A stretch of 64,000 nucleotides of DNA, taken from positions 64,001 to 128,000 of IMG/VR virus record IMGVR_UViG_3300035070_002905; one strand, 5' to 3'. Under the pieces are notes generated by a model. It was not told where the DNA came from, ran no database searches, and saw only the letters and a program-made list of their open reading frames with translations. Source of the DNA: a virus. Of this stretch, positions 35,664 through 57,400 are shown in pieces. Position numbers and translations under genes: made by a program. Position 1 is the first letter of the stretch, and each line of letters starts with the position of its first letter.

Positions 35664-35965
35664 TCATCCGCATCCACCTCGACGAGGAACACCTCGACGG
35701 CTCTCGTATTGTACCACTGGACTGTGCACGCAGACTGGTAGACAACCTAGAGAGCTTCGACACGTTCTGCACCGAGTTCTTTCAACCACGCTTCCTAGAG
35801 ATGGGATACGACGTCCACGTACTAAGCGAAGACGGTATCATCACTCTAAGCGAGCTAATGGATAACACCCACCCTTACATCAACAAGGAAATGCGCCGAG
35901 CACACGACACCAGGAAGATGCTCGTAGCCGGTGCGTTTACACCTAAGCCAATAGAGGACTACTAA
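35660..35965 (+). CDS. Hypothetical protein
   Basis: ATGA overlap, GAGG RBS. Confidence 0.6.
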   Translation: MIIRIHLDEEHLDGSRIVPLDCARRLVDNLESFDTFCTEFFQPRFLEMGYDVHVLSEDGIITLSELMDNTHPYINKEMRRAHDTRKMLVAGAFTPKPIEDY

Positions 35966-36405
35966 TGCGCACTAGACAAGGATTCGTCAGCAACTCATCT
36001 TCATCTTCATTCCTAATCTACGGCTTCGAGATGAAACCTGAACTCATGGCAGACTACATCGAGACTCTATCAACAGAAGAGATCGCTGCGCAGCTGCAAC
36101 GAGTTTACACAAATCGTAATAAAACGTTAGAAGTACTATGTGAGGAAGCAGCCGCTATGTCCACCGAAGAGCTAACGGATTGGTTCTCCGACGACATGTG
36201 GGATTTCGCTAACACGCTAGGTCTAGACTATGAGTCAACAGATTATGGCCCAGGCCTCATCGGTGTTAGTACGGATCCAACCTGCCTCTCACTCAACGAG
36301 TCGCTTAACGGCTGGCTCACCGCAGCAAACAAGCAGAAGGTCGACGATCTGGCAGCAGACTTCGGCGTACCAACTACACTAATTGGAGATGTATCATATG
36401 GCTAG
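35965..36405 (+). CDS. GFVSNSSSSSF-motif protein 1
   Basis: Begins MRTRQGFVSNSSSSSF. Confidence 0.8.
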   Translation: MRTRQGFVSNSSSSSFLIYGFEMKPELMADYIETLSTEEIAAQLQRVYTNRNKTLEVLCEEAAAMSTEELTDWFSDDMWDFANTLGLDYESTDYGPGLIGVSTDPTCLSLNESLNGWLTAANKQKVDDLAADFGVPTTLIGDVSYG

Positions 36406-36835
36406 AACACGCCAAGGCTTCGTAAGTAACTCAAGCAGCTCATCATTCATCATCGGCCTAGGTGTCGCTGTAGACCCTGAGGCCCTTAAAGACATCGGCT
36501 ACGGCATCAACACGCGTCAGCTCTGCGATATCTTTGAGAATCCAGGTTGGGAGATTGATGTTAAGACTCGCGGCGATCGTATCTACCTCGAGATGGAGTC
36601 TTTCACCTACAATACGGTAGAGCTAGACGTTACCGAGGTACCGCCAGATTCAGACATCGCGATCGTCTACGCGACTGGTCATGATGATTCAGACTTCTGG
36701 AACGGTGACGACTACGACTACGATAGCGATAACTGGGAGCTGGAGGGCCATCAGGAAGAAGCTCTTAAGGCACTCGAAGACGATGAGCTAATCGAATTCG
36801 GTACGTATGAAATCGGCGCAGGCCGCAACGGTTAA
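36398..36835 (+). CDS. GFVSNSSSSSF-motif protein 2
   Basis: Begins MARTRQGFVSNSSSSSF; GGAG RBS before ATG 36398. Confidence 0.8.
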   Translation: MARTRQGFVSNSSSSSFIIGLGVAVDPEALKDIGYGINTRQLCDIFENPGWEIDVKTRGDRIYLEMESFTYNTVELDVTEVPPDSDIAIVYATGHDDSDFWNGDDYDYDSDNWELEGHQEEALKALEDDELIEFGTYEIGAGRNG

Positions 36836-36844
36836 GGATAGACC

Positions 36845-37273
36845 ATGAGAACAAGACAGGGATTTGTCAGCAATAGCTCCAGCAGTAGCTTCTTACTGTA
36901 CGGTTGGTCAATGGATACGGCGGACGCTCTTCCGTATCTATGGGAGGCCGAGGATGACTTCATAGATCACCTCAAGCGCCACCATAACCTCCGCGATAAA
37001 TCGGAGGAGTACATCAAGGAACTGATGGAGAAGCCTGCAGAGGAGATCTACCAACACCTAGACTATGATACCTGGTGTCTATTCGAACCCTTTGCGGCAG
37101 AGCAGGGCGAAGACATAGTATACTTCGGATATAATCTAGGCAATCCCGAGTACATGAACGTCCAGCAACTAATGGAACCTCTGCTGACCCTTGAGATCAT
37201 GCAAGAGGTTGACGATGCGGCGGCCATTGCCGGTCAACGAGCTTCCGTGTACGGAGGCACCGTCTACAACTAG
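36845..37273 (+). CDS. GFVSNSSSSSF-motif protein 3
   Basis: Begins MRTRQGFVSNSSSSSF. Confidence 0.8.
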   Translation: MRTRQGFVSNSSSSSFLLYGWSMDTADALPYLWEAEDDFIDHLKRHHNLRDKSEEYIKELMEKPAEEIYQHLDYDTWCLFEPFAAEQGEDIVYFGYNLGNPEYMNVQQLMEPLLTLEIMQEVDDAAAIAGQRASVYGGTVYN

Positions 37274-37281
37274 GAGATAGA

Positions 37282-37695
37282 ATGAGGACACGCCAGGGCT
37301 TTGTAAGCAACTCGTCGTCCTCTTCCTTCATCATCGTGACTCACTCAGAGAATATCCATCCGGATGTCGTGGGTGATGTCACGTGGTTCGATGAGGATAG
37401 AGTGCGTGAAGAGATTAAAGAGGTCTACGGATGGGATGTCGTAGATACGTTATACAACGAGTGGTTCGATAAGAATCCTCACCGAGAAGATCCACCCTCT
37501 ATGTGGGATAAGTGGTCTACCCTATCTGAAGAAGAGCAGTGGAAGCGCTTATTTAATATACCTGAAGCCCGCGAACTGTACGACTATATGATGGACGCAC
37601 TGGACGCCGGGGACTTTGTAGCTGAAGTCGAGATGGACTATAACGACCCGAGCGAACCCATCCGACAACACCATGAAATTATTAAGGAATACTAA
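37282..37695 (+). CDS. GFVSNSSSSSF-motif protein 4
   Basis: Begins MRTRQGFVSNSSSSSF; TAATG-coupled to the radical SAM gene. Confidence 0.8.
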   Translation: MRTRQGFVSNSSSSSFIIVTHSENIHPDVVGDVTWFDEDRVREEIKEVYGWDVVDTLYNEWFDKNPHREDPPSMWDKWSTLSEEEQWKRLFNIPEARELYDYMMDALDAGDFVAEVEMDYNDPSEPIRQHHEIIKEY

Positions 37696-38882
37696 TGATT
37701 AATCCAAAGAAACACATCCTACCTGAAGCAATGCTGAAAAACTGTGAAGTATTCTACTCTGGCCACGGCGTGACCATCTACCAGGCAGGCGAGTGGCGCT
37801 TCGCCCGTTCTGAAGCGTACAACTACGACTACAACACGGTAGACGGCTTCTTCCGTCGCTGGGGTGCCACGCTAGACGAAGACCCTACCTTCGCACCACT
37901 TAACGAGATCCTCGACATCGAGGTGACCACCATTTGTAACGGTCCGGCTAACCGTCTGTGTTCCTTCTGTTACAAAAACAATAACCCTAACGGCTACAAC
38001 ATGCCACTGGCAGACTTCCAGGCGGTAATCGATAAGATGCCCTGGTTGACTCAGTGTGCACTAGGCGCCGATGCTCAGGGTACAACCAACCCCGACCTCA
38101 TCCCGATGATGCAGTACGCACGCAGTAAGGGTATCATCCCGAACCTGACGATCGCCGATGTAAGCGAGGAGGTTGCCGAGCAGCTAGCTTCAGTCGCCGG
38201 AGCTGTAGCTGTGTCTGTGTACCGACATGCAGGCTACGACGTCGCGTATGACTCTGTGAAGCGTCTAACCGACGCAGGCATGACTCAGGTCAACTTACAC
38301 TTCATGATCTCTCAGAGAACGTTAGAGGACGCCTATGAGGTATGTCGAGCCATTAAAGAAGATCCTCGTCTTGCTAATGTCAACGCCGTCGTATTTCTCA
38401 GCCTTAAACAGAAAGGCCGTGGACAGCGACACGAGTACGTTACTGAGACTGAATACAAGGAACTGGTGGATCACTGTCTGGCAGAAGGCATTCCCTTTGG
38501 CTTTGACAGCTGTTCTGCTCCTATATTTCTGGGCGCAGTTCGTGAGCATCCATCGTATGATCGTTTCCGCGAAATGGCAGAAGACTGTGAGTCAACCCTC
38601 TTCAGTTCATACATCAACGAACACGGACACTTCTTCCCTTGCTCCTTTACCGAGAAGTGGGTCGAAGGTGGATGGCTAGAAGGCATCGACGTGCTGGCTG
38701 CCGATGACTTCGTGACCGACGTATGGAATCACCAGCGTACCTGCGACTTTAAAGACGTCCTACGCGATAACACCGATGACCTTGGCTGTCGTCAGTGCCC
38801 GGCGTACGATGTGTGCGGTCGTCCGACTCGAGTGTACGATAGTGAAGTAGAAATTGTTGACTTGACTAGCTACAAGCGATAA
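37695..38882 (+). CDS. Radical SAM enzyme with SPASM/twitch-like C-terminal domain
   Basis: IEVTTICNGPANRLCSFCY (CX7CX2C); C-terminal CES...YINEHGHFFPCSF and CRQCPAYDVC. Confidence 0.85.
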   Translation: MINPKKHILPEAMLKNCEVFYSGHGVTIYQAGEWRFARSEAYNYDYNTVDGFFRRWGATLDEDPTFAPLNEILDIEVTTICNGPANRLCSFCYKNNNPNGYNMPLADFQAVIDKMPWLTQCALGADAQGTTNPDLIPMMQYARSKGIIPNLTIADVSEEVAEQLASVAGAVAVSVYRHAGYDVAYDSVKRLTDAGMTQVNLHFMISQRTLEDAYEVCRAIKEDPRLANVNAVVFLSLKQKGRGQRHEYVTETEYKELVDHCLAEGIPFGFDSCSAPIFLGAVREHPSYDRFREMAEDCESTLFSSYINEHGHFFPCSFTEKWVEGGWLEGIDVLAADDFVTDVWNHQRTCDFKDVLRDNTDDLGCRQCPAYDVCGRPTRVYDSEVEIVDLTSYKR

Positions 38883-39467: not shown

Positions 39468-39612
39468 AACCTGCTATAAATAAAGTGTAAGGAGTTATAC
39501 ACTCCTGCGGAAATTCAACATTCTAGTTATTTCCGTTATAATTAAGTTGTAAGGTAAACTACACCTTACTCGGAGCAAGTGCTCCAACAGGATTAGCAAT
39601 AGCGATCCTGCA
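39448..39612 (+). promoter_or_regulatory. Tandem duplicated promoter-like units and hairpin-rich leader of the poly-Ubl gene
   Basis: Two roughly 61 bp degenerate repeats AATTCAACA...TATAA.TAA..TGTAAGG, each followed by a hairpin, then two more hairpins. Confidence 0.55.
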
Positions 39613-39638: not shown

Positions 39639-40745
39639 ATGACTACTAAGATCATCATCCCTGGCCGTGAAGCACAAACTCTAACTGGCATGACTATGGA
39701 CGTAGAGCAAGTTAAAGCAGCTTACGCTGGTCAAATTGATCTTTCTGCGTATAACGTCGACACTCAAGTTGTTGATGGCGAAACAGTAATCACATTCTCA
39801 AACCGCACTGGTACAAAAGGAACTGACATGCAGGTAATTAACGAAGCAGGCTCTAACCCGGTATTCACTACTATCATCATTCCGGGCCGTGAAGCTCAAA
39901 CTATTCCAGGCATGGCGCTTGGCGTAGACGATGTAGTAGCAGCATTCGCCGGTCAAATCGATCTGAAGAACTACGAGTCTCAAGTGGCTCAAGAAGAAAC
40001 AGGTCCAGTAATCACATTCGCAAACCGTACAGGCACAAAAGGAAATGGCATGCAAGTAATCAACGAAGCAGGTTCTAACCCAGTATTCACAACTATCATC
40101 ATCCCAGGTCGTGAAGCACAAACGATCCCTGGTATGGCGCTAGGCGTGGACGACGTGGTTGCCGCTTTCGCTGGTCAAATCGACCTTAAGAACTACGAGT
40201 CTTCAGTTGCTACTGAAGATACTGGTCCAGTGATCACCTTCAGCAACCGTACTGGTACTAAAGGTAATGACCTGTTCGACGTGCTTTCACAGATGATGGC
40301 ATCTCCTACTACGGTAGAAGAAGAGCCGGCTGCTCCAGCTGGTCCTACTGGTACTAAGATCCTGATCCCAGGCCGTGAAGCTCAGGTAATCCCTGGTATG
40401 CTGATGGACGCTGAGCAAGTTAAAGGTGCTTACGCTGGTCAGATCGATCTATCTGCTTACAACGTTGACGTTAGCGTTGACGGTGACTTCCAGGTAGTGA
40501 CGTTCACTAACCGCACTGGTACTAAAGGTGCTGTCCTAGACGACAGCGCTGCACTTAAGCACACTAAGATCGTGATCCCTGGTCGTGAAGCTCAGGTGAT
40601 CAGCAACATGGTACTTGACGCTTCTGGCGTTAAAGCTGCTTACGCTGGTCAGATCGATCTATCTGCGTACAACGTAGAAGAAACTGAAGACGGTGACACG
40701 TTAGTAGTAACGTTCTCTAACCGTACAGGTACTAAAGGCGCTTAA
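39639..40745 (+). CDS. Polyubiquitin-like precursor: five Ubl units each ending NRTGTKG (PRTRC protein C/Prok_Ub-like)
   Basis: Five roughly 59 aa repeats IPGREAQ...AGQIDL..Y...TF.NRTGTKG; GTKG end as in PRTRC protein C; adjacent E2/JAB/E1 genes. Confidence 0.8.
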   Translation: MTTKIIIPGREAQTLTGMTMDVEQVKAAYAGQIDLSAYNVDTQVVDGETVITFSNRTGTKGTDMQVINEAGSNPVFTTIIIPGREAQTIPGMALGVDDVVAAFAGQIDLKNYESQVAQEETGPVITFANRTGTKGNGMQVINEAGSNPVFTTIIIPGREAQTIPGMALGVDDVVAAFAGQIDLKNYESSVATEDTGPVITFSNRTGTKGNDLFDVLSQMMASPTTVEEEPAAPAGPTGTKILIPGREAQVIPGMLMDAEQVKGAYAGQIDLSAYNVDVSVDGDFQVVTFTNRTGTKGAVLDDSAALKHTKIVIPGREAQVISNMVLDASGVKAAYAGQIDLSAYNVEETEDGDTLVVTFSNRTGTKGA

Positions 40746-40761
40746 GCCTTAGGTATTCTGG

Positions 40762-40791
40762 AAGGCGCCCCTCCGGCGCCTTTCTTTTTTT
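40762..40791 (+). terminator. Intrinsic terminator after the poly-Ubl gene
   Basis: AAGGCGCC-cctcc-GGCGCCTT then TCTTTTTTT. Confidence 0.85.
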
Positions 40792-40809: not shown

Positions 40810-41409
40810 ATGGACTATCCACAACCAAGTGACGTACAGAAGCAGATCAATGATGCTATCGTAGCCTGTCTAGATAATAACATCATCCGTTCTCTGGAAG
40901 ACATCCTGGAGCCGATTATCGGTGAGCAGAAAGGAGTCTTCAATGGTTCAATCAAATATCGTGGCGATATCAGCGATGCACAGATGCTGGTTAAACAGTA
41001 TGTAGGCATGATGCCTCTACAACAGATCTGCGGTCGTATCCTCCACGACGATACAATCATCCGCCTATGGAAGGGCGAGAGCTGTGTGGTAACTGAATCC
41101 CTGATGAACACTACATTCGTTCGTCGTGGTGAAGATCACCTCAAGCTTATCTTGGTCACCGTAAATGACCCGGCTACAGTAGACTACGTGAGTAATCTAG
41201 ACTGTGCGTACAACATCGAGCTAAATGAAATGCCGGAAGGCCGCCTTGGTATTGAGCTGCAAGTTCCAGTCAGCACTACCAACGCCGATCACTACTTCCA
41301 ATTCCTACAGCGTCTACCAGCTATCCTAGACGTATACTACACTCTACTGACGAGGTTCCCTACATGTCAAATCTCTTCGATCAATTTTCCGGACTTTCTG
41401 AATTCGTAG
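40810..41409 (+). CDS. Uncharacterised protein of the Ubl operon
   Basis: AGGAG RBS, 199 aa. Confidence 0.7.
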   Translation: MDYPQPSDVQKQINDAIVACLDNNIIRSLEDILEPIIGEQKGVFNGSIKYRGDISDAQMLVKQYVGMMPLQQICGRILHDDTIIRLWKGESCVVTESLMNTTFVRRGEDHLKLILVTVNDPATVDYVSNLDCAYNIELNEMPEGRLGIELQVPVSTTNADHYFQFLQRLPAILDVYYTLLTRFPTCQISSINFPDFLNS

Positions 41410-41648
41410 ATCTGCGTCACGAGTCGTATATGTCTCTGAACAATCTACTAGAAGGCCTTCGTAGCTTCAACGGCACACCTTCAGAAGCTCTTGAGATGGT
41501 TACTACAAGTAACTGGCAAGAAGGGCTTAACGAATACCAGCGACAGCAACAGCGTGTTCGTAACGGTAACCAACAAACGATCCGCGCTATGCAGCAGATC
41601 ACTTTCCGCGACTGTAAACCTGTAATGAGAGGAATCATCTATGTCTAG
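41364..41648 (+). CDS. Uncharacterised small protein of the Ubl operon
   Basis: GAGG RBS; overlaps both neighbours. Confidence 0.6.
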   Translation: MSNLFDQFSGLSEFVDLRHESYMSLNNLLEGLRSFNGTPSEALEMVTTSNWQEGLNEYQRQQQRVRNGNQQTIRAMQQITFRDCKPVMRGIIYV

Positions 41649-42333
41649 TCATATCGACGCTCGTATCCACGCAGAAGGCTACGTATCTATCAGTAACGAA
41701 GCTGGTGCAAACAAGAACATCTCGATCCCTGACTTCTTGCGTAAGATCAACCAGCTTGAGCAGGAGAATGGCAACCAGACTCAGGAAGTAGGCGAGGCGT
41801 ATACTTACCCGTCGTCTATCCACTCGGTCCAGCGTACCACTGATGGTTTCATTGTAAGCCTGTACTTCAACGAGCGTGAAGCTAACATACGTCACTCGTA
41901 CGGTGAAAGCTACCTGATCACTGTACCTAACGTAATGATCCGTCTGGAGCTACGTAAGGTTAACGGCGAAGAGCGCTACTCGATTGTAGATGCACGCTTC
42001 TACGCTACCGATAAGAACCGCATCAGCTTGCCTACGGTATTCCCTAGCGAGCCACGCAGTCAAGAACATATCTGGGCACTACCATTCCCTAATATGTATT
42101 CCGAAGGTAACATGTGCTACGGCGGTAACAGCATGCCTAGCGTAATCTACCGTGATTGGACTGTACTAGACTCTGTCTACCAGACTCTGATCATCGATGC
42201 ATCATGTAACAACGACTTGAACGTACCGTCAGTTAACGATGGTCCGTCTAATGGCGACGACTGGTTACAAGTCCTAGCCGACCACCACTCTCGCGGTGAT
42301 GGTTTCCCTTACACTCGTCTATACAACTACTAG
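41641..42333 (+). CDS. Prokaryotic E2-like conjugating enzyme (PRTRC protein B/Prok-E2_D-like)
   Basis: LPFPNMYSEGNMCYG matches the PFxNV..xG.VC.G catalytic-Cys motif. Confidence 0.75.
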   Translation: MSSHIDARIHAEGYVSISNEAGANKNISIPDFLRKINQLEQENGNQTQEVGEAYTYPSSIHSVQRTTDGFIVSLYFNEREANIRHSYGESYLITVPNVMIRLELRKVNGEERYSIVDARFYATDKNRISLPTVFPSEPRSQEHIWALPFPNMYSEGNMCYGGNSMPSVIYRDWTVLDSVYQTLIIDASCNNDLNVPSVNDGPSNGDDWLQVLADHHSRGDGFPYTRLYNY

Positions 42334-43479: not shown

Positions 43480-44025
43480 ATGGAATTAGAACTGACACAG
43501 GGATGTGTCACTCTTATTGATGATGAAGATGCCGACCTTGTGTCGGCTCACAAGTGGTATCCTTTATACGTACCAAGTAGAGATAAATACATGGTGATAC
43601 GTAATAGGAAGATGGTGAACTACGAGAGGAGTGGTACTAGGTATCTGCATACCTTCCTACTGCCTGTTAAAGATGGATATTCTGTAGATCATATAAACAG
43701 GGATCCTCTAGATAACCGACGTAGTAATTTACGAGTAGCTAATAAGCAGCAGCAGCAGCTTAACACTGGACCTCGCAGGAATTCACCTATCCCGTATAAA
43801 GGAGTATCTTATAAGAAGACTAATAGCAATTACGTAGCTCAGATGTATGCACATGGTAGGAATATACATATAGGATCATTCGATTCTCCTACTGATGCAG
43901 CATTGGCGTATGATGAATACTCATTAGACTATTGGTCTAACATCCCCGACGATCCTATCTCAGGGTCGTATACACAATTCCTATATTTAAACTTTCCGGA
44001 GAAACACAATGGCACTATTGCGTAA
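43480..44025 (+). CDS. Free-standing HNH homing endonuclease with AP2 domain
   Basis: VDHINRDPLDNRRSNLR; YKGVSY...HIGSFDSPTDAALAYD. Confidence 0.9.
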   Translation: MELELTQGCVTLIDDEDADLVSAHKWYPLYVPSRDKYMVIRNRKMVNYERSGTRYLHTFLLPVKDGYSVDHINRDPLDNRRSNLRVANKQQQQLNTGPRRNSPIPYKGVSYKKTNSNYVAQMYAHGRNIHIGSFDSPTDAALAYDEYSLDYWSNIPDDPISGSYTQFLYLNFPEKHNGTIA

Positions 44026-45025
44026 ATTTGATTTACTTTTGCAGGACGTTATCGTCGTGGGTTGTGGTGGTACAGGTTCACGTACAATCCCTATGATCGT
44101 GCAGCTGTTGAAGACTGCTCCTGCAGCGATCGGTCCCGCGCTATACCTAGTGGATGGTGATGAGGTTGAGGCTAAGAACCTTGCCCGTCAGAACTTCATC
44201 GAGCCTGATATCGGTCGTAACAAGGCGGTTGTACTAGCTGAGCGCTACGGCCAGGCTATGGACTTCCCTGTACATGCACATCCGCAGTTCGTTACGGACG
44301 GCGGTAACATCGTGGGTGACATTAACCGATCGGCTAGCTCTAACGACTTCCGTCAGCTAGGCCAGATGCGTAAGATCTGGATCCTTGCAGTAGATAGCAT
44401 CAAGGCTCGTATGATGGTACTTCAACAGGCCGGTCACAACGATGTAATCATCGATGCCGGTAATGAAGATACATTCGGTCAGGTGAGCATCTACGATAAC
44501 ATCCACCTAGAGTGCCTCCAGGGCGACTCTACGCCGGAGTTAGGTCCCTTCCAAGGGGATTACGCACTGCCGTTCATTCCGTCGCCCCTGACGTCGTACA
44601 TCGCCGCTGTGATCAATCCTCCGGTTGCTACCGGTTCGTGTGCAGATCTAGATCAGTCTCTAGCGATCAACAATATGATGTCTGCGGGCATCGTTGGTAT
44701 GCTGCAGAACCTGATCTACAACAACGAGTTCTATACCTGTACTAACTCGTACGACCTGCACCGCGGTAACCAGTCGACTTCAATGAACCACCTCTGGTTC
44801 AACGAGACGATGGGCCGTCAGCGCTTCGAGAAGCAGGAGTTCGGTCGTCTTGGCGATGATCTACCTAACCGTCTGTACGATCACCTGTCTAGCCACTCTC
44901 AGAACTTCCTGATGGCGAAGAACATGGAGACTCGTCGTGGTTCAATGGTACATGAACTGCTTTGCGATATCCGCTCTAAGACTACTGCCGTAGATCCAGC
45001 CGTCCTGGCTGCTCTAAAGCTATAA
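44009..45025 (+). CDS. ThiF/E1-like Ubl-activating enzyme (PRTRC ThiF-like)
   Basis: VVGCGGTGS, DGDEVEAKNLARQNF, GRNKA, AVDSIKAR, IDAGNE, GSCADLDQSLAIN. Confidence 0.9.
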   Translation: MALLRKFDLLLQDVIVVGCGGTGSRTIPMIVQLLKTAPAAIGPALYLVDGDEVEAKNLARQNFIEPDIGRNKAVVLAERYGQAMDFPVHAHPQFVTDGGNIVGDINRSASSNDFRQLGQMRKIWILAVDSIKARMMVLQQAGHNDVIIDAGNEDTFGQVSIYDNIHLECLQGDSTPELGPFQGDYALPFIPSPLTSYIAAVINPPVATGSCADLDQSLAINNMMSAGIVGMLQNLIYNNEFYTCTNSYDLHRGNQSTSMNHLWFNETMGRQRFEKQEFGRLGDDLPNRLYDHLSSHSQNFLMAKNMETRRGSMVHELLCDIRSKTTAVDPAVLAALKL

Positions 45026-45026
45026 C

Positions 45027-45060
45027 AAAAAGGCCAGCTCCGTGAGGGGCTGGCCTTTAG
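45027..45060. terminator. Bidirectional intrinsic terminator
   Basis: AAAGGCCAGCTCC-gtga-GGGGCTGGCCTTT between convergent blocks. Confidence 0.8.
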
Positions 45061-49689: not shown

Positions 49690-52600
49690 CTAGATAAGAT
49701 ACGGTTGGCCTATGCCGATAAGAATCGTATCATCATCGATTACCTGGAATACCTCTTGGATCAAACCTGATACAGGCTGAGCCGAAGTAAATGTCCCTGC
49801 ACTGTTTAGCCAGTAGTACTGTCCGGTAGTATAGCCGTGTCCGGTAATCGTACAGATTCCGCTAGACTGTACTCGATAGGTACCGATGTCCACTACCTCA
49901 CATACAAAGCCGGTAGCCGGAGCCATAGACGATGCATCTGCCGGAGCCCAGTTAGCACCTGCACCTCTAGCTAGCAACTGCTGCTGAGTAAACGGATGGT
50001 TAGGGTGGACTACTGTAATGATATCAGTTGAAGCACCTTCGATAGCGCTAACGTTTAGACGCTCAGTACCAGTTAATGCCTCTAGCTTATCGCGAATCTG
50101 GATTCCAGTATCGCTGCCTACCGGCACGTCTGCATGAAACTTAATGTTAGTTACTGCAACTCGAGCGAATACGATGTGTAGATCGTTTGTTACCAGTCCA
50201 CCAGCTCCTGGAGTAGTCGAAACAGTCCAGTAAGTGGTGTCCGTATTAGTATGAGCTTCTGTACCAACTACTGGATCTATTTTAGTAGCACCACCACCCA
50301 CAGGGTTGCCTTCGTACACGCGGATATCACGATCAGTACCCGATGAGGTCACTTGACCGTATCGAATCTCTAGGACCATGTTATGTGTAAGGGCACCTGC
50401 CGGGACTACCAGCTCACATACATCCGCGGAGGCAGAAGTCTCATCGGCGAATACGTTAGTGAAAAAACCTGCACCGCTACCGAAACCAAGAGGGAAGCTA
50501 CGTCCTGCATCTCTACGGAATGATGCACTTACACCAAGGCCTTCGACCATGTCATCTGCTAGAGTGTTCAGTGGAATGCCGTTAGTAACTCCGAAATCCT
50601 CGAAGATCTTAAGGGCCGCACTACCGAATCCACTACCGCGGATATCAGATGCCATAAACGGAGCGTTAGATACTACCTGTAGATCGTAAACGCCTTGACG
50701 CTGTACTACTACGTGGTAATCATCGGTTGCAACCAGCGCACTATCTAGGTTCCAAACTACAGTCTGTAGAGCACCGTATACGTTAGACTCTTGACCGTAT
50801 ACCGGATCAACTACTACACCGCCTGATGTAGGATCACCTCGGTATACCCTGAAGTGCCTATCACCGGTAGCAGATCCACGTGCGAATCGCGCCTGTAAGA
50901 CCTTGCCTCGAGCTTCCTGTGCTGGAATTATGAATTCCGCTACTGCACCGTCTCCCGTTTCATCTACCGAGCTGTTAAGCCAGAACCACCACGAGCCTGC
51001 CGTTAATGAGGCAAACGGCATGATACGAGAGTTAGTATCTCTCCATGCAGTCCCTGGGACTAGAGTACGTTCAAGTAGCTCATCGCCCTGTGCCTTAGTA
51101 AGCGTAGTACCGGTAGGAATAGCATCACGTACCGCAATCTCACGAAATACGTTCTGGAACGTACCTGTACCATCTATATTCAAGTTCTGAATAGCAGATG
51201 AATCCAGGCGATCTGTACCTGTTAATGCCTCTAGTTCATCCCGAATCTGTGTACCAGTAGACTGGCCAAGAGATGTATGGAACTCTACGTCAAGTAGAAT
51301 CTGACGTCCTAGGTATACGTAGATGTCAGCTGAGTTAGCTGGGACCTGGTAAGTTACCGCATGAGCAGTAGCACCGCTGTTCGTACCGACTACCGGTAGA
51401 ATCTCTGTACCTGAAGCTGTAGCATCACCGTTGAATACACGTAGTTCACGAGTCAGACCTGACACGATATCACTTATGAAGAACGTGATGTATGAACCGC
51501 CAGTTAGATCTTTACCAGTGAAGATTACCTCGCTGTACGCGTGACCTGCATCTGTAGGATCTTGTCCACCCGATGGTGCATATACACCCCACGAGTCAGC
51601 ATCGTCGTAGTATGCTAGTGCAGTACGAGCTGTAGTAACACCTACACCAAATGTGCGTAGGATCTCTGTAGACTGTGCTACCGATAGAGCCTCATCATCT
51701 GCAATAGAGTCACGGTCTGCGATCGTCTTAGCATGCTTAGCGTACTTACTGAATACATTCTGTACCGCCCAAGATTCTAGGCGATTAGCCTCTGCCACCG
51801 ATTCGATATCATCGATAAGCTCTAGTGGAGTAAACCCTAGACGATTGTTGATCGCCTGAAGAGATAGCTCTTCCCAGTCTGCCGCGTTGAATGCACCTGC
51901 AGTAACCGTAGCGATAGCCACGTAGTCACGTCCAAGGTGAGATACATAGGCGCCGATCGCATAGTTGTTCGCGATGTTAAACACGTTGTAAGCTGCCGCA
52001 CCACGTAGGGATACGATGTCACCTTCAACTGCTTCGATTCGGTTTTCGTTAGTGATTGCACTGACGATCTGCCACTCCGCAACATCCCATGCACCTGCTG
52101 CCACGCCTGTACGTGCTTTGTACAATCTGCTTAGGTAGATTACGTAGGTACCTGCAGTATACGTTGCAGTAGAATCAAAGTCTGCCGGACGAGCTGCCCC
52201 GCGTAACGCCTCGATGTCTACTTCAGCTGTATCGATACGACCTTCGTTATCTACAATCGAGATGACCTGCCATTCCGATGCGTCGAAGTTACCTGGAAGT
52301 ACTGCTGCAATAGCATGGTATAGACGGTTGCCGAATACACAGCTATCGTCGATTGCGTAAGTAGCCGTAGAGTCAAAGTCTGCCGCTACTGCCTGGCCGC
52401 GTAGCTGTTCGTGCGCATCGCTGATACCTACTGAAGTCTCTAGGACTAGCGCTGCGTTACTTAGAGTAGACGCTTCGTACCAGTTAGCTGCATCCCACGG
52501 TCCTGCCGTAAGATCTTCACGAGCGATGAACGTACGGTTATCTGCTGTACGATATACCGAGTCACCTGCAGAGTATGCCTGAGTAGCGCTGAATTCTGTC

Positions 52601-54357
52601 GGGCGGGCTCCGCCACGTAGTTCCAGACGTTCCGGCGCACCGGTATCGCTAGATAGCGGTAGGTTAGTGTGCACTGCGATGTTGTTAACTGTTACTCGAG
52701 AGAAAACGATATGCAAATCAGTAGTTACTGCGCCATCATTCTCTGGAGTAGTCGAAACATTCCAGTAGGTCGTAGCCGCACCTGTATGCGCTTCAGTACC
52801 CTCTATAGGTGTCAACTTGGTTACGCCAGTCGTAGGATCTCCTGGGTATACACGAACATCACGTTCTGTACCGCCAGTAGTAACTTGACCATAGGTAACT
52901 TCTAAGACTTGGTTATGTGAAAGTCGGCTCGCAGGAATCACTAGTTCACATACGTCTGCCGTAGCTGCAGTCTCATCGCCGAACGAAGCCGAGAATAGAC
53001 CGGCACCATTGCCGAACATCCTAGGGTATTGACGTCCTGCGGTAGTACGGAATTCCGCACCGATACCCATACCTTGAACTATATCGTTAGCGTGAGTACC
53101 TAGTAGCTCTCCGTTGACTAGACCTGTTTGTTGGTTAACTAGCGCAGCAGCTTCTGAAAAGGATGCACCCTTAAGAGCGGCCATGTGATATGCTGAGTTA
53201 TCCACTAGTTGTAGATCGAAGATACCTTGACGCTGTACGATGATATGGATATCGCCAGCAACGCCGTCCGGGCGCTCTAGATCCCATACTGTAGTAGCCT
53301 GGCTACCGCGAAGAACGAACTCGTTACCTAGAATAGGGTCGATTTCCACACCTAGGTTAACCGGGTTGCCGTCGTATACGCGGAACATTCGAGTTCCAAT
53401 AGTTGACGAACGAGTGAACCTAGCAGTTAACGCCTTGCCACGTACTGATTCTGCAGGAAGTACTAATTCTATACACGCTCCGGCACCAGTCTCATCTATC
53501 TCACTGTTTCTCCACAGCATGAAGCTGTTATTAGACTGAGATACGATCGGCATGATACGTGAGTTATCAGTAGCCCAGAACGCATCGATACCTAGAGTAC
53601 GTCGAACAATCTCATCGGCTTGTGCTTTAGTTAACGTAGCACCTGAGGTAAGACCATCACGTACGAAGATCTCTTCTACTACCGGCTGGAATGCAGCATC
53701 GCCGTCGAGATTAAGATTCTGGATAGCTGATGCATCTAAGCGAGCAGTACCAGTAAGTTCTTCCAGACGATCACGGATTGTAGTACCGCGTGCGTTGTTA
53801 CGTACAGACAGTTCCTGCCATCGTGCCGTATTGAAGGCTTCCGGCGTAGTTACTGGATCGATACACAGGTATTCACGGGCAGACGTAGTCTCCCATACCG
53901 TAGCACCGAGTACGTACGTAGATGAAGCACTGTAGTCTGCCGAACGAGCTGCGCCGCGTAGCGCTACGATCTCTTCCGGTAGAACGCTAAGTGCTTCTAC
54001 TCGAGTGTTAATAGACTCTAGCGATAGATCCTGCCATTTAGCCGAGTCGAATGCTTCTGCCACGGTAACCGCAGTAGTACAGACATAGTGTACTGAGTTA
54101 AAGGTTACTAGATCATCTAGTGCGTATGTTGCGGTGGCATCATACAGTGAAGCAGAGTTGCTCCCGATGACGCTGTGTACGGTTGATTGTAGGAATCGTC
54201 CGTTAGAGAGAGTGATCTCGCCACCCGTACCATTACATAGGTACGATAGACCGGTCTCAGTGATAAACGTGAATTCGCCTAGCCTAATCGGTAGGGCAAT
54301 CGCTGCCGCTACAGTATCTGCCTGTAGACGTCTCACTTGTTGTTGGTTATAGCTCAC
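49690..54357 (-). CDS. Large tail fibre protein (1555 aa) with six CBM5/12-like repeats and an internal duplication
   Basis: GTG start with AGGAG RBS; repeats visible in the translation. Confidence 0.7.
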   Translation of the reverse strand: MSYNQQQVRRLQADTVAAAIALPIRLGEFTFITETGLSYLCNGTGGEITLSNGRFLQSTVHSVIGSNSASLYDATATYALDDLVTFNSVHYVCTTAVTVAEAFDSAKWQDLSLESINTRVEALSVLPEEIVALRGAARSADYSASSTYVLGATVWETTSAREYLCIDPVTTPEAFNTARWQELSVRNNARGTTIRDRLEELTGTARLDASAIQNLNLDGDAAFQPVVEEIFVRDGLTSGATLTKAQADEIVRRTLGIDAFWATDNSRIMPIVSQSNNSFMLWRNSEIDETGAGACIELVLPAESVRGKALTARFTRSSTIGTRMFRVYDGNPVNLGVEIDPILGNEFVLRGSQATTVWDLERPDGVAGDIHIIVQRQGIFDLQLVDNSAYHMAALKGASFSEAAALVNQQTGLVNGELLGTHANDIVQGMGIGAEFRTTAGRQYPRMFGNGAGLFSASFGDETAATADVCELVIPASRLSHNQVLEVTYGQVTTGGTERDVRVYPGDPTTGVTKLTPIEGTEAHTGAATTYWNVSTTPENDGAVTTDLHIVFSRVTVNNIAVHTNLPLSSDTGAPERLELRGGARPTEFSATQAYSAGDSVYRTADNRTFIAREDLTAGPWDAANWYEASTLSNAALVLETSVGISDAHEQLRGQAVAADFDSTATYAIDDSCVFGNRLYHAIAAVLPGNFDASEWQVISIVDNEGRIDTAEVDIEALRGAARPADFDSTATYTAGTYVIYLSRLYKARTGVAAGAWDVAEWQIVSAITNENRIEAVEGDIVSLRGAAAYNVFNIANNYAIGAYVSHLGRDYVAIATVTAGAFNAADWEELSLQAINNRLGFTPLELIDDIESVAEANRLESWAVQNVFSKYAKHAKTIADRDSIADDEALSVAQSTEILRTFGVGVTTARTALAYYDDADSWGVYAPSGGQDPTDAGHAYSEVIFTGKDLTGGSYITFFISDIVSGLTRELRVFNGDATASGTEILPVVGTNSGATAHAVTYQVPANSADIYVYLGRQILLDVEFHTSLGQSTGTQIRDELEALTGTDRLDSSAIQNLNIDGTGTFQNVFREIAVRDAIPTGTTLTKAQGDELLERTLVPGTAWRDTNSRIMPFASLTAGSWWFWLNSSVDETGDGAVAEFIIPAQEARGKVLQARFARGSATGDRHFRVYRGDPTSGGVVVDPVYGQESNVYGALQTVVWNLDSALVATDDYHVVVQRQGVYDLQVVSNAPFMASDIRGSGFGSAALKIFEDFGVTNGIPLNTLADDMVEGLGVSASFRRDAGRSFPLGFGSGAGFFTNVFADETSASADVCELVVPAGALTHNMVLEIRYGQVTSSGTDRDIRVYEGNPVGGGATKIDPVVGTEAHTNTDTTYWTVSTTPGAGGLVTNDLHIVFARVAVTNIKFHADVPVGSDTGIQIRDKLEALTGTERLNVSAIEGASTDIITVVHPNHPFTQQQLLARGAGANWAPADASSMAPATGFVCEVVDIGTYRVQSSGICTITGHGYTTGQYYWLNSAGTFTSAQPVSGLIQEVFQVIDDDTILIGIGQPYLI

Positions 54358-54408
54358 AGTAATCTCCTATCTATGGTACGCATGCGCGCTAATTAATGTG
54401 CTTACGTA

Positions 54409-54415
54409 TATTTTA
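54409..54415 (-). promoter_or_regulatory. Candidate late promoter TAAAATA
   Basis: Immediately after the upstream terminator. Confidence 0.6.
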
Positions 54416-54418
54416 GAC

Positions 54419-54443
54419 AAAAAGAAAGGGCCCGAAGGCCCTT
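54419..54443 (-). terminator. Intrinsic terminator with UUCG loop
   Basis: AAGGGCC-ttcg-GGCCCTT then TCTTTTT. Confidence 0.85.
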
Positions 54444-54445
54444 CA

Positions 54446-57400
54446 TTAGGTTGGTCTGATGACGTCGAGGAAATCCTCGTTAGCCACTGAATCGTATACA
54501 ATACGAATCGCCGTGTCTGACACTCGGAATACTTCAGTGCCGTGTCGCAGGTGCGCTCCGTTGAACTGGAACCCTGCACGAGTATACTCGTCTGCAGTCA
54601 TGTTAGGGATCGCCCAGCTAGCTCCTGCCGCTACCGTAGCTGTGTACTCGGTAGAAATATCGAAGTTAACTGTAGGGACATCGCCGTTACGCTGTACTAC
54701 CGTATAGATTCCACTGCCTGTATGGACAACCTTACCTACGATGTACGAGTCACGTGGTACCGGAAGATCCTCTACGATGTACGCCTGCATCTGCTCTGAA
54801 GTCATCGGCTCACCGATATACTTCATCAACGCGATGTTAGGACTATCGGAGCGAGCGATCAGAGTATCCACTACGTACGAGTTAGCCGGTACAGTCGCCA
54901 GGGCATCATCCGATGCATCCCAGTACTGGTTACCTGTAGCGGAGCCGCCTGGACCCCACTGGTAATCCGTAACGAAGGTACGAGCCAGCTCTGCGAAGCT
55001 AGTTCCGGCTACTGGAATCAGAACCTCCAGATCTACCGTAGCGTCTGCCGCCGTGTTGTACTGACGTAGAGACTCTGCAATCACTCGACCGGTACGAACT
55101 GATAGGTTCTGTACGTTACGTGCAATGCTTCGGCCTACGACGACCGGAAGTCGTGTTAGATACTCGTTAAGAGTACCATCACCGAAGAACGGTCCGATTA
55201 CGTTAGTAGTCAGAGTAGATCCCGCTATGCGAATCTCACCTACTAGTACGATCTGCGCTAGCTCTGCATCTGTGAATAGTCGTTCCTCGCCCAGTAGGAA
55301 GTTAGAACGTTTAATCACGATGTCGATGCTAGGAGAAGTAGTAGAATTAACTACTGTGTATCGTCCGGTGGGTGCTGTAAATGTACCTACTGGACATATA
55401 CCGACTACTGCGTGCTGATCTGTAGCGACCATTCCATGAGCAATACCCGTCTCACCTGCGTACGATAGGTCTGTAGCGAATAGCTTAGCCTCGATCGCCG
55501 ACATAGCGAATGTCGTAATAGGACTCTCCAGCGTAATCGTCACTGCTCGATCATAACGTAGGCCGTAGTCTCCTACCGGAGTAACCTCCGTCTGAATCTT
55601 AGCGTTCAGCTCTGTCACCGCCGCCTGTAGCTCAGTCGCTACGATAGGGTTAGGTGAAGTATCCTGTGCAGGATCGTAACTAACATCTGCCGCCGTAATA
55701 GGAGGAAGACTAATAGCACCTGAACCCGCAGCCGTAATATCGATCACCGCGTAGCTCACTACATCGGTATCGTCTACGTTGTGCGGAATGACCTGTAGTA
55801 CAGTACTCCCGTCGAACGTACCCGTTACACTAGCACCACCGTTGATTAGCGATAGGACATCGGTAGGGTTACGTCGGATTATGTAGCTACCCTCGCCGAG
55901 TAACTTAACTGTAACCGTTGCAGAGTCAGGGACGTCTGCTTCTGTTACCGCGTTAAGGATAGGCGTTTCGAATACCCAGTCACGTACACCATCTGCGATG
56001 AAGATCGTATTCTGAACGATATCCTCAATGGTAACATACACTGTCGGTAACGATGTGAACACCGTGAACAACCAGTCTGACAGGTAGACATTCGATAGGT
56101 TGGCTACTTCGCCTGTATCGAAACGGTTCTCTGAGACTGAACCGGTATACGGTTGGACCCAATTAGATACTATAGCCGACTGAGCATCTGCTGCAGTAGG
56201 AGGAGTTACTGTAAGGGTCATTACACCCCAGTTATTACCAGCCTTAGGAGCGATCTCTACTCGGACATCAAAGTAATCTACTACACCGGTGAAGGTGAAT
56301 ACCGTAGAACCCATGGTGAATACAGTATCGCTGCCGACAACCTCTACGTCGATCAGTAGCTGACCTGCCGTATTAGGTACCGGAGAGTCTACTGCCGTCC
56401 AGCAAGACTGAAGACGAGCTTTACCTGATGCTAACTTGAAGTTATAGTCGATCACGTTACCGTTATCGAATACTACCGCCAGATTCTCCAGTGACATCGG
56501 ACGGGTTAGACCTGTCTGAGCAGTCGCTGAGGTATCTTCACATTGTAGTACGTTGCGTCCTGACTCGACTACCAGAGAAGGAGTACCTACCTCGGTCCAG
56601 CCTTGCAGTGTTGCATCACCGTTATACAGGTTAGTATTGTACGTTACGCGTGCCGTAAGGTTACGAGAAGTATGGAACTGAGTCTGAGACGTCAGGTCTT
56701 CAAGTAGATCCGGTACGATTACCACTAGCTCGCTGCTACTAGTAAGTTCGTGCTCGTTAGAGACTGCTGCGTATGTCGTATCCCCACCTTTCTGTACTAG
56801 CGCCGCTGCAAGTCGGTATCCGTTTCTACCTGAAGTAGGTAGAGATAGGATAGGAATACCTGCGGATAGCTCTGAGGCCGTGTACAGGGTGTCGCCCTTA
56901 GTAAGCAGTAGATCTCGAGATGAACCAGGCTTCTGGTAAATCCACAGGTAATCTACTGAGAACATACCTTCCGGGATCAGAGCATGCTGTGCGTTCGTTT
57001 CGTCTGAGTCTGGTACAGTACCTAGGATGTTATAGTAACGCCCATCGGCCTGCAGAACCTCATCACGGTTATCATCATCCGGCCATAGTGCACGCACGGT
57101 AGGTGACGTAGCGCCTAGATAAGGTACGACCTGTCCATACGTAGTACGGATGAATCCCGAGGTGATGTTGTAAGTAACACCTGCACCTGGGATTACGTTA
57201 ATACCGCTAAGGATCTCCGAGATTGTACCTTCTTTAATCTCCTCTGAACCGTTATCTGCAAGCCATATACTCTCGGTAATAGTATTAATATTACCTGAGT
57301 CCGCTAGTACGTGTGCGAAGTCCATCGCCCAGGGTTCGTTACTAGTGAATGAAGGGTTCTCACCTTCATCGCCTGTAAGTACAACGATATCATAGCCAGA

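What the first reader, a model, noticed from the sequence alone, without database searches (positions are those of the whole stretch)
39639..40745. Polyubiquitin-like precursor: five units of two subtypes, capped by one extra Ala
Seen: units end at aa 61, 135, 209, 297 and 367 (nt 39821, 40043, 40265, 40529, 40739), all in NRTGTKG, and the last is followed by a single Ala and stop. Units 1, 4 and 5 share VKxAYAGQIDLSAYNV; units 2 and 3 share VVAAFAGQIDLKNYES and are nearly identical as protein while differing at many synonymous sites. Known: eukaryotic polyubiquitin genes are head-to-tail repeats with an extra terminal residue removed by a DUB. Inference: no unit has a free C-terminal Gly until the JAB cuts, so the JAB would both license conjugation and release up to five modifiers of two types.
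Basis: partly seen in the sequence, partly recalled or inferred. Interest (0 to 1): 0.85.

Follow-up and report, generated by a model that had tools for sequence, protein, structure and literature searches.

The report
Phage five-unit ubiquitin-like precursor gene
A 172-kb phage encodes five small ubiquitin-like modules in one protein, each with its own conserved glycine tail, next to E2-, JAB- and E1-like genes; this looks like a viral counterpart of the polyubiquitin gene, but cutting into single units has not been shown.

Summary
ORF 39639-40745 (+) encodes 368 aa: five modules ending NRTGTKG at aa 61, 135, 209, 297 and 367, then one Ala and a stop. Units 1/4/5 and units 2/3 form two subtypes. 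Units 2 and 3 are 55/59 identical in the core, with dS above 1 and dN/dS about 0.04.

Each module is a divergent Prok_Ub/PRTRC_C-type beta-grasp domain. AlphaFold2 models five independent domains. The tails and linkers are disordered.

The operon runs Ubl, two unknown ORFs, E2-like, JAB, E1. This is the gene order of the untested PRTRC cassette (operon type 6d of Iyer 2006), but without ParB.

Among 56 relatives the operon stays constant while the Ubl has 1 to 5 units. One relative has a perfect spacer-less 57-aa x5 array. Internal tails are as conserved as terminal ones. Half of the proteins end exactly at Gly and the rest carry 13 different caps. The residue after internal tails is almost always A/N/Q/S/T.

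Best reading (about 0.55): a JAB-processed poly-Ubl precursor. Main rival (about 0.3): an intact multi-domain Ubl, like the bacterial Ubl3 proteins.

The scan had already noted a two-unit version on other DNA (e1-5680168).

The parts
39515..39542 (+). sigma-70-like promoter candidate upstream of the poly-Ubl gene
   Evidence: TCAACA-16-TATAAT, 10 of 12 matches. This is a consensus match only; the region has fewer such sites than its shuffles.
39639..40745 (+). poly-Ubl gene, 368 aa plus stop
   Evidence: Open frame. Pfam Prok_Ub E 2.3e-5, 24.5 bits against a cut-off of 25. NCBIfam PRTRC_C is weak, but the profile end (66/66) falls on the unit's last Gly.
39639..39821 (+). unit 1 (aa 1-61), subtype A, ends NRTGTKG
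   Evidence: AF2 beta-beta-alpha-beta-beta domain with pLDDT about 90; tail residues 58-61 below 50.
39822..40043 (+). unit 2 (aa 62-135), subtype B, with a 16-aa N-terminal spacer
40044..40265 (+). unit 3 (aa 136-209), subtype B, old duplicate of unit 2
   Evidence: dS above 1, dN/dS about 0.04 against unit 2. Clusters with unit 2, SH-aLRT 99.
40266..40529 (+). unit 4 (aa 210-297), subtype A. It is preceded by a short helix (aa 212-219) and a Pro/Ala/Glu-rich spacer.
   Evidence: The helix directly after the preceding tail is conserved in relatives.
40530..40739 (+). unit 5 (aa 298-367), subtype A, counterpart of the terminal unit of three-unit relatives
40740..40745 (+). one-residue Ala cap and TAA stop
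   Evidence: Relatives carry no cap (27 of 56) or 13 other caps.
40760..40791 (+). terminator-like hairpin plus T-run directly after the poly-Ubl gene
   Evidence: 10-pair stem with 7 GC pairs, then T7. Pattern match only.
40810..41409 (+). 199-aa protein of unknown family, in the position of PRTRC protein F
   Evidence: No Pfam, NCBIfam or PHROG hit. Homologues lie at the same position in Vibrio phage D181 and in L007.
41364..41648 (+). 94-aa ORF of unknown function
   Evidence: ORFs of like size lie at the same position in L001 (95 aa) and L007 (83 aa). No family hit.
41641..42333 (+). E2-like protein (Prok-E2_D / PRTRC_B type)
   Evidence: Pfam PF14460 E 5.8e-4, below cut-off. Invariant Cys159 (..C.GG) and downstream His215 in four distant homologues. 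This is the 6d E2 signature described in PMC1779556.
42346..43479 (+). JAB/JAMM metallopeptidase (PRTRC_A type) with an acidic C-terminal tail
   Evidence: Pfam Prok-JAB 40.4 bits, above the cut-off of 25. TIGR03735 E 8e-21. E107, H154, S155, H156, S164 and D167 are invariant in 27 homologues.
43480..44025 (+). HNH-AP2 homing-endonuclease-like gene inserted between JAB and E1. It is not part of the system.
   Evidence: PF13392 and PF00847. Absent at this place in L001, L003 and L007.
44009..45025 (+). ThiF-type E1-like enzyme
   Evidence: PF00899 50.7 bits, above cut-off. TIGR03736 E 1.2e-20. GCGGTG loop and the DAGNE block are conserved.
45029..45058 (+). terminator-like hairpin closing the operon
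   Evidence: 13-pair stem

Best explanation
The gene encodes a pro-protein of five PRTRC_C/Prok_Ub-type beta-grasp modifiers strung on disordered linkers. Each ends in the flexible activation tail R-T-G-T-K-G.

Inferred mechanism:
1. The operon's JAMM peptidase hydrolyses the peptide bond after the last Gly of each tail. This removes the Ala cap and releases up to five monomers of two subtypes: A (units 1, 4, 5) and B (units 2, 3). Units 2 to 5 keep their spacer as an N-terminal extension.
2. The ThiF-type E1 adenylates the freed Gly.
3. The modifier passes to Cys159 of the E2-like protein.
4. It is attached to targets that remain unknown. The two unknown ORFs are candidate adaptors or targets.

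Packing several units into one gene, which has its own promoter-like and terminator-like sites, would supply the modifier in excess over its enzymes.

Shown here: the repeat anatomy, the fold class, the operon content, the intact catalytic motifs and the comparative pattern. Inferred: cleavage at internal junctions, activation, conjugation and the stoichiometric purpose.
For: 1. Tails of internal units are conserved as strictly as terminal ones. At 101 internal junctions in 56 family proteins the tail is R/K-T-G-T-K-G in 94, and the rest are near variants. AF2 puts these tails outside the fold, with pLDDT below 50. Their conservation is therefore not explained by folding.
2. The NCBIfam PRTRC_C profile ends exactly on the unit's last Gly. 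Canonical single-unit PRTRC_C of C. necator pHG1 ends G-A-K-G plus a 5-aa cap.
This is the pattern of pro-Ubls that are trimmed.
4. Unit number varies 1/2/3/4/5 (4/10/38/1/3 proteins) while the operon Ubl-X-Y-E2-JAB-E1 stays the same.
5. In at least 10 proteins the units cluster within the protein, so arrays arose repeatedly. P0055 is a spacer-less 57-aa x5 array ending GTKG-N.
6. The two proteins with a unit-like stretch that lacks the tail (P0008, P0020) show that the tail can be lost where it is not used.
7. The residue after internal tails is restricted to A/N/Q/S/T in 98 of 101 junctions and is never Pro, acidic or aliphatic. This fits a protease subsite.
8. The JAB has an invariant E...HSH...S..D motif.
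9. Both copies of subtype B are under strong purifying selection, with dN/dS about 0.04 and dS above 1.
10. From established knowledge, JAMM enzymes cut linear Ubl fusions in other systems, for example MoaD-MoaE by DRJAMM (abstract of PMC8832034). Iyer et al. predicted the same for phage TAPI and for ThiS/MoaD fusions (PMC1779556).
Against: There is no experimental or direct computational evidence of cleavage, and no PRTRC/6d system has been studied biochemically in the literature I could search.

In about 40 three-unit relatives, units 1, 2 and 3 form separate clades, so unit positions are conserved. The spacer after the penultimate unit always begins with an amphipathic helix followed by an acidic tract. 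The 16-aa spacer of window units 2 and 3 is also conserved, 14 of 16 residues, despite synonymous change. Selection therefore acts on the whole architecture and not only on unit count.

Unlike polyubiquitin, the units are separated by spacers of about 10-28 aa (30-50 aa in relatives) and are not identical.

The experimentally studied bacterial multi-beta-grasp Ubls (Ubl3 of Bil/Bub operons) function as intact proteins (PMC11601603).

Units were picked by their tail motif, so the 100% G/K/G figures are partly circular. Only the flanking T, T and R/K positions are free measures.
Confidence: 0.55

Rival explanations
1. Intact multi-domain modifier (a 'Ubl5'). The JAB removes only the Ala cap. The whole five-domain chain is activated at Gly367 and conjugated as one piece. 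The internal domains serve as binding or oligomerisation modules, as in ISG15-like BilA and the Ubl3 proteins of Bil/Bub operons.
For: Positional orthology of units across about 40 relatives. Conserved helix plus acidic spacer before the terminal unit. A conserved spacer between units 2 and 3. The terminal unit has its own signature (A-R-TGTKG against N-R/K-TGTKG) in three-unit relatives. Bacterial Ubl3 proteins are stable intact proteins that form Ca2+-dependent filaments (PMC11601603).
Against: Internal tails are kept as strictly as the terminal one although they are modelled as disordered. In Ubl3, domains 1 and 2 pack tightly, whereas here AF2 gives no inter-domain arrangement (pTM 0.25). 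Spacer-less, near-identical arrays such as P0055, P0048 and P0051 look like dosage arrays and not like differentiated domains. Unit number changes freely, from 1 to 5, with a constant operon.
Confidence: 0.3
2. Partial processing. Only some junctions are cut, for example the one followed by the conserved helix and the terminal cap. The products would be a multi-domain N-terminal piece and one or two helix/acidic-tagged terminal-type modifiers with different roles.
For: The junction before the terminal-type unit differs from the others in all relatives, with a helix and then an acidic tract. Tail-less pseudo-units occur only just upstream of the terminal unit (P0008, P0020). They would remain fused to it as a two-domain modifier.
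Against: All junctions carry the same tail and the same class of following residue. Nothing in the sequence marks a subset as uncleavable.
Confidence: 0.1
3. Not a conjugated modifier at all. The units would be non-covalent scaffold or carrier domains, for example for adenylation-dependent chemistry other than protein tagging. In-frame internal starts would then explain shorter products.
For: Conjugation by PRTRC systems has never been shown. In-frame ATGs with an AAAGGA six bases upstream lie at junctions 1/2 and 2/3.
Against: The operon has an E2-like protein with an invariant Cys and a JAB peptidase. It has no sulfur-transfer or cofactor genes. The internal ATGs are not conserved in relatives, and they would not create free Gly ends.
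Confidence: 0.05

Closest known systems
PRTRC cassette (NCBIfam TIGR03734-03742), equal to operon type 6d of Iyer, Burroughs and Aravind 2006 (PMC1779556)
   Same: The gene set and order are the same: Ubl (C), unknown (F position), E2-like (B), JAB (A), ThiF E1. Compare C. necator pHG1 with the window. The Ubl ends in G-x-K-G, often with a short cap. The E2-like protein has the conserved Cys plus a downstream His. The system sits on mobile elements and has never been tested.
   Different: All matches are below the NCBIfam trusted cut-offs. No ParB is present anywhere in the phage genome, and proteins E and F are not detectable. The host is a large lytic-type phage, not a plasmid or ICE. The Ubl is a five-unit array instead of the single roughly 70-aa protein of canonical cassettes.
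Eukaryotic polyubiquitin genes (UBB/UBC/UBI4 type)
   Same: Several modifier units are translated as one chain. Each ends in the activation Gly. The last unit is blocked by extra residue(s) that vary between species. A dedicated peptidase is available. Arrays arose repeatedly and copy number is variable.
   Different: There is no sequence homology beyond the beta-grasp fold class. The window's units are non-identical (two subtypes, 54-93% identity) and are spaced by about 10-28 aa instead of being fused head to tail. The tail is T-K-G and not R-G-G. The presumed peptidase is a JAMM metalloenzyme encoded in the same operon. Processing is unproven.
Ubl3 / Ubl2 multi-beta-grasp modifiers of bacterial Bil and Bub operons (PMC11601603; the 'polyUbl' of operon type 6e in PMC1779556)
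   Same: One to three tandem beta-grasp domains lie in one protein next to E1, E2 and JAB genes in prokaryotic mobile contexts.
   Different: They belong to a different Ubl family. Domains 1 and 2 of Ubl3 pack tightly, bind Ca2+ and form filaments, and the protein acts intact. Here the domains are modelled as independent beads, each with a full copy of the tail.
JAMM-processed linear Ubl fusions (MoaD-MoaE cut by DRJAMM, PMC8832034; lambda-type TAPI/TAPK predicted in PMC1779556)
   Same: A JAMM peptidase cuts, or is predicted to cut, a linear peptide bond right after the C-terminal Gly of a beta-grasp domain to free it.
   Different: Those are single Ubl-to-partner fusions and not arrays of modifiers. 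One IMG/VR relative (L012) does show a PRTRC_C domain with a 137-aa extension after GTKG.

Membership tests
PRTRC / operon type 6d | ThiF-type E1 without a rhodanese domain | tested here: met
   PF00899 50.7 bits, above the cut-off of 28.1. TIGR03736 is the best NCBIfam hit, E 1.2e-20, but its 73.9 bits are below the cut-off of 144.75. No rhodanese hit.
PRTRC / operon type 6d | JAB/JAMM peptidase with an intact metal site, encoded next to the E1 | tested here: met
   PF14464 40.4 bits, above 25. TIGR03735 scores 74.5 bits against a cut-off of 101.8. E107, H154, H156, S164 and D167 are invariant in 27 homologues.
PRTRC / operon type 6d | E2-like protein with a conserved Cys and a downstream conserved His | tested here: met
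   C159 and H215 are invariant in four distant homologues. The profile scores are sub-threshold: PF14460 20.1 against 25, TIGR03737 13.9 against 131.
PRTRC / operon type 6d | Small stand-alone beta-grasp Ubl (about 70 aa) with a conserved C-terminal Gly | tested here: inconclusive
   Each unit matches Prok_Ub just under the cut-off (24.5 against 25) and matches the end of PRTRC_C. The fold list is dominated by MoaD/ThiS/ubiquitin-type proteins at Z 3-5 only. The protein is not stand-alone; it holds five units.
PRTRC / operon type 6d | ParB-family protein in the cassette (the 'ParB-related' part of the name) | tested here: not met
   No ParB_N match in the whole 172-kb genome, which is 95% complete by CheckV.
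PRTRC / operon type 6d | Gene order C-(F)-B-A-ThiF | tested here: met
   Window: Ubl, 199 aa, 94 aa, E2-like, JAB, [HNH], E1. pHG1: C, F, B, A, ThiF.
Polyubiquitin-type precursor | Tandem units, each ending in the activation Gly, with a blocked last unit | tested here: met
Polyubiquitin-type precursor | Units fused directly head to tail and (near-)identical | tested here: not met
   In the window, about 10-28 residues separate each tail from the next 59-aa core, and there are two subtypes. The feature is met in the distant relative P0055.
Polyubiquitin-type precursor | Endoproteolytic release of monomers by a deubiquitinase-type peptidase | not testable with these tools
   Needs biochemistry or proteomics.
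Polyubiquitin-type precursor | Sequence homology to ubiquitin | tested here: not met
   No ubiquitin-family Pfam hit. No PDB sequence relative. Only fold-class resemblance.
Bil/Bub Ubl3 | Tightly packed beta-grasp domains 1-2 with conserved Ca2+ sites, and only the last domain carrying the Gly tail | tested here: inconclusive
   AF2 gives independent domains (pTM 0.25) with disordered junctions, and every domain carries the tail. A model is not a structure, and the Ca2+ sites were not examined.

The most novel reading that the evidence does not exclude
A bacteriophage runs its own ubiquitin-like tagging pathway and feeds it from a polyubiquitin-style gene. One translation product is cut by the operon's JAMM peptidase into up to five modifiers of two (in relatives, three) conserved subtypes. 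This would be a convergent, virus-borne reinvention of the polyubiquitin precursor, with several distinct tags made from one gene. Arrays arose independently at least ten times in this family, which would imply that modifier supply limits the pathway.
Probability: 0.5. Interest if true: 0.85.

Novelty: new variant of a known kind. Interest (0 to 1): 0.7.

Why it matters
Polyubiquitin genes, in which many modifiers are translated as one capped chain and cut apart, are regarded as a eukaryotic hallmark. The tandem Ubls noted in bacteria in 2006 have since turned out to be intact multi-domain proteins.

A phage family in which every unit of a 1-to-5-unit array keeps its own activation tail would be the first prokaryotic-virus case of the precursor strategy. 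The array sits next to a private E1, E2 and JAMM peptidase. It offers a simple test: one substrate, one peptidase, five predicted cuts.

It would also open the untested PRTRC/6d family to experiment, and it raises the question of what a lytic phage tags during infection. So far bacterial Ubl conjugation has been studied as defence against phages, not as phage equipment.

A practical point from general knowledge: trypsin would leave a single-Gly remnant (+57.02 Da) on target lysines. This is isobaric with carbamidomethylation, so standard di-Gly proteomics would miss these conjugates.

Tried and rejected
- **Complex prediction.** JAB residues 1-215 were modelled with unit 2 plus its junction and Zn. 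The result was no verdict: the score was 0.85, but a control with an unrelated chain 1 scored 0.76. It is not used as evidence either way.
- **Foldseek, five-domain model against PDB.** The top hits were other bead-on-string arrays (BamA POTRA repeats, linear tetra-ubiquitin) at rmsd about 20 A. This shows repeat topology only and was not used for fold assignment.
- **Foldseek, single unit.** Nothing below E 1. The weak rows include GB1 and protein L.
- **VIA-align wide.** Z was at most 5, so the fold class is suggestive but not proven.
- **PDB sequence search with the unit profile.** No relative.
- **PHROGs.** Nothing useful.
- **GTDB genome contigs scanned with unit patterns.** No relative was found. 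One query failed for lack of a conserved stretch.
- **blastn of window 50001-58000 against deposited phages.** No match, so the phage as a whole has no close deposited relative. Only the Ubl operon matches Vibrio phages D69/D148/D181, at about 68%.
- **Literature searches for phage-encoded Ubl systems or poly-Ubl precursors.** No prior description was found in the searchable library.
- **Internal translation starts at junctions 1/2 and 2/3.** Considered and set aside. The ATGs exist, but they are not conserved in relatives and would not free any Gly.

Full report
**1. Observation.**
The ORF at 39639-40745 (+) is open for 368 codons. A script located GTKG at aa 61, 135, 209, 297 and 367, which is nt 39821, 40043, 40265, 40529 and 40739. 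Each is preceded by N-R-T, and the last is followed by Ala and TAA.

The five 59-aa cores align without gaps and share 29 invariant columns. Units 1, 4 and 5 form one subtype and units 2 and 3 another. Units 2 and 3 are 55/59 identical in the core and 68/74 including their 16-aa spacer. They differ at 31 synonymous codons, with dS about 1.2-1.4, dN 0.06 and dN/dS about 0.04-0.05. Both copies have therefore been held by purifying selection for a long time.

The array is unique in the genome, a single 172,110-bp viral contig of 48.6% GC that CheckV rates 95% complete.

**2. What the units are.**
Pfam gives Prok_Ub at 24.5 bits, against a cut-off of 25. NCBIfam gives a weak PRTRC_C match whose profile end (66/66) falls on the last Gly of unit 1.

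AlphaFold2 with 24 homologues models five separate beta-beta-alpha-beta-beta domains with pLDDT 80-94. The segments 58-72, 132-147, 206-213, 219-231 and 295-303 fall below 50; these are the tails plus the spacers. The pTM of 0.25 means no fixed arrangement between domains.

A single-unit model has pLDDT 81 and again leaves the last four residues disordered. Foldseek finds nothing significant for it. An exhaustive VIA-align search gives only Z 3-5, but the list is dominated by MoaD, ThiS, ubiquitin, SUMO, ISG15, Urm1, SAMP and GB1. The beta-grasp fold class is therefore likely but not proven. No solved structure is related by sequence.

**3. Context.**
Downstream, on the same strand, lie the following genes:
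- a 199-aa ORF and a 94-aa ORF without family;
- an E2-like protein. Prok-E2_D is sub-threshold, but Cys159 and His215 are invariant in four distant homologues;
- a JAB peptidase. Prok-JAB is above cut-off and PRTRC_A scores E 8e-21. E107, H154, S155, H156, S164 and D167 are invariant in 27 homologues;
- an inserted HNH-AP2 endonuclease gene;
- a ThiF-type E1, with PRTRC_ThiF E 1.2e-20.

This is the content and order of operon type 6d of Iyer et al. 2006. That type has a JAB, an E1, a small Ubl with a C-terminal Gly, an unknown protein, and an E2-like protein with a Cys and a downstream His (PMC1779556). It corresponds to the PRTRC cassette. On C. necator pHG1 the annotated order is ParB-E-C-F-B-A-ThiF, and protein C is a single unit ending G-A-K-G plus the cap AHARI.

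The phage has no ParB, and all NCBIfam scores are below the trusted cut-offs. It is therefore a divergent relative and not a member in the strict sense.

A promoter-like site (39515-39542) and a terminator-like hairpin (40760-40784 plus a T-run) bracket the poly-Ubl gene. A second hairpin follows the E1. These are pattern matches only.

**4. Relatives.**
tblastn finds three-unit versions in Vibrio phages D69, D148 and D181 (about 187 kb), ending GTKG-INYSK.

A search of 5.8 billion proteins gives 41 homologues, mostly from contigs of 150-187 kb. An exhaustive profile search gives 27 cluster representatives.

In the pooled 56 proteins, unit number is 1 (4 proteins), 2 (10), 3 (38), 4 (1) or 5 (3).

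The operon is unchanged where context is available:
- L007 has a 66-aa single unit followed by ORFs of 216, 83 and 284 aa, then JAB and ThiF, next to a terminase.
- L003 has a five-unit protein followed by ORFs of 132 and 482 aa, then E2_D, a 443-aa ORF and ThiF.

The L003 protein (P0055) is an exact 57-aa period with no spacer. Each later unit starts where the first starts, with Ala in place of Met, and the chain ends GTKG-N. IMG/VR adds more one- and two-unit cases. It also adds one PRTRC_C domain carrying a 137-aa extension after GTKG, in a cassette that has ParB.

**5. Evidence bearing on cleavage.**
- (a) Internal tails are R/K-T-G-T-K-G at 94 of 101 junctions. The freely varying T positions are 94-100% conserved in internal units against 92-94% in terminal units. 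The G, K and G positions were used to define units, so their 100% figures are circular.
- (b) The tails are modelled as disordered, so folding does not explain their conservation.
- (c) 27 proteins end exactly at Gly.
- (d) The residue after internal tails is A, N, Q, S or T in 98 of 101 cases.
- (e) In a quick maximum-likelihood tree of 160 units, units cluster within the protein in at least ten proteins. Arrays therefore arose, or were homogenised, repeatedly.
- (f) P0008 and P0020 each hold one unit-like stretch without a tail, so the tail can decay.

Together these points favour the view that each tail is used, which requires cutting.

**6. Evidence the other way.**
- In the three-unit relatives, units 1, 2 and 3 form separate clades. 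Window units 1, 4 and 5 group next to the terminal-unit clade, and units 2 and 3 group together (SH-aLRT 99).
- The spacer after the penultimate unit always starts with an amphipathic helix, of the type Q-T-N-L-L-x-A-I-F-A-A-V, followed by an acidic tract. In the window this helix follows unit 3 (aa 212-219).
- The 16-aa spacers of window units 2 and 3 are 14/16 identical despite five synonymous changes. Both amino-acid differences lie at the two residues right after the tail.

The architecture is therefore under selection, unlike a pure dosage array. The experimentally studied multi-beta-grasp Ubls of bacteria (Ubl3) act intact and form Ca2+ filaments (PMC11601603). Nothing here demonstrates proteolysis.

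**7. Verdict.**
The most likely reading (about 0.55) is a poly-Ubl precursor cut by the operon's JAB after each GTKG. This would give two subtypes of modifier with N-terminal extensions. An intact 'Ubl5' is the main rival (about 0.3), and partial processing is a third option (about 0.1).

Tandem Ubls 'reminiscent of poly-ubiquitin' were noted in 2006 only for the unrelated 6e family. I found no description of phage-encoded poly-Ubl arrays in the searchable literature.

Earlier notes of this scan report a two-unit version in another 175-kb phage and several phage PRTRC-like cassettes. They agree with this report but are not independent evidence.

I class the finding as a new variant of a known kind.

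Noticed in passing
window 35965-38882: Four adjacent genes (starts 35965, about 36398, 36845, 37282) encode roughly 140-aa acidic proteins. They share the N-terminus M-R-T-R-Q-G-F-V-S-N-S-S-S-S-S-F. A 395-aa protein follows with weak radical-SAM and SPASM hits. This looks like a precursor-plus-maturase set.
   Followed up: no
window 43480-44025: An HNH-AP2 homing-endonuclease-like gene lies exactly between JAB and E1 and overlaps the E1 start by 17 nt. It is absent at this position in related operons.
   Followed up: partly
window 39822-39830 and 40044-40052: In-frame ATG codons lie three residues after the tails of units 1 and 2. Each has AAAGGA (the Lys-Gly codons) six bases upstream, so they are possible internal starts. 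The other junctions use GGT or GGC and have no ATG, and the feature is not conserved in relatives.
   Followed up: partly
L001 10529-11542 (Vibrio phage D181): The deposited E1 CDS starts at an internal Met (251 aa). The frame is open about 86 codons further upstream and encodes the GCGGTG nucleotide loop. The annotated start therefore looks too far downstream, or the true start is non-canonical.
   Followed up: partly
L012 2276-2869 (IMG/VR contig): A PRTRC_C domain ending GTKG continues for 137 more residues in the same frame. It sits in a cassette with ParB, PRTRC_B, PRTRC_A and ThiF. This is a possible Ubl-partner fusion that would need cutting after the Gly.
   Followed up: partly
relatives P0007-P0043, spacer after the penultimate unit; window aa 210-222: A conserved amphipathic helix immediately follows the GTKG tail, and a 20-40-aa poly-acidic tract follows the helix before the terminal unit. 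Its function is unknown. It may be a docking element or the N-terminal tag of the last modifier.
   Followed up: partly
window 50001-58000: No blastn match to any of 50,697 deposited phage records. Only the Ubl operon region resembles Vibrio phages D69/D148/D181, at about 68%.
   Followed up: no
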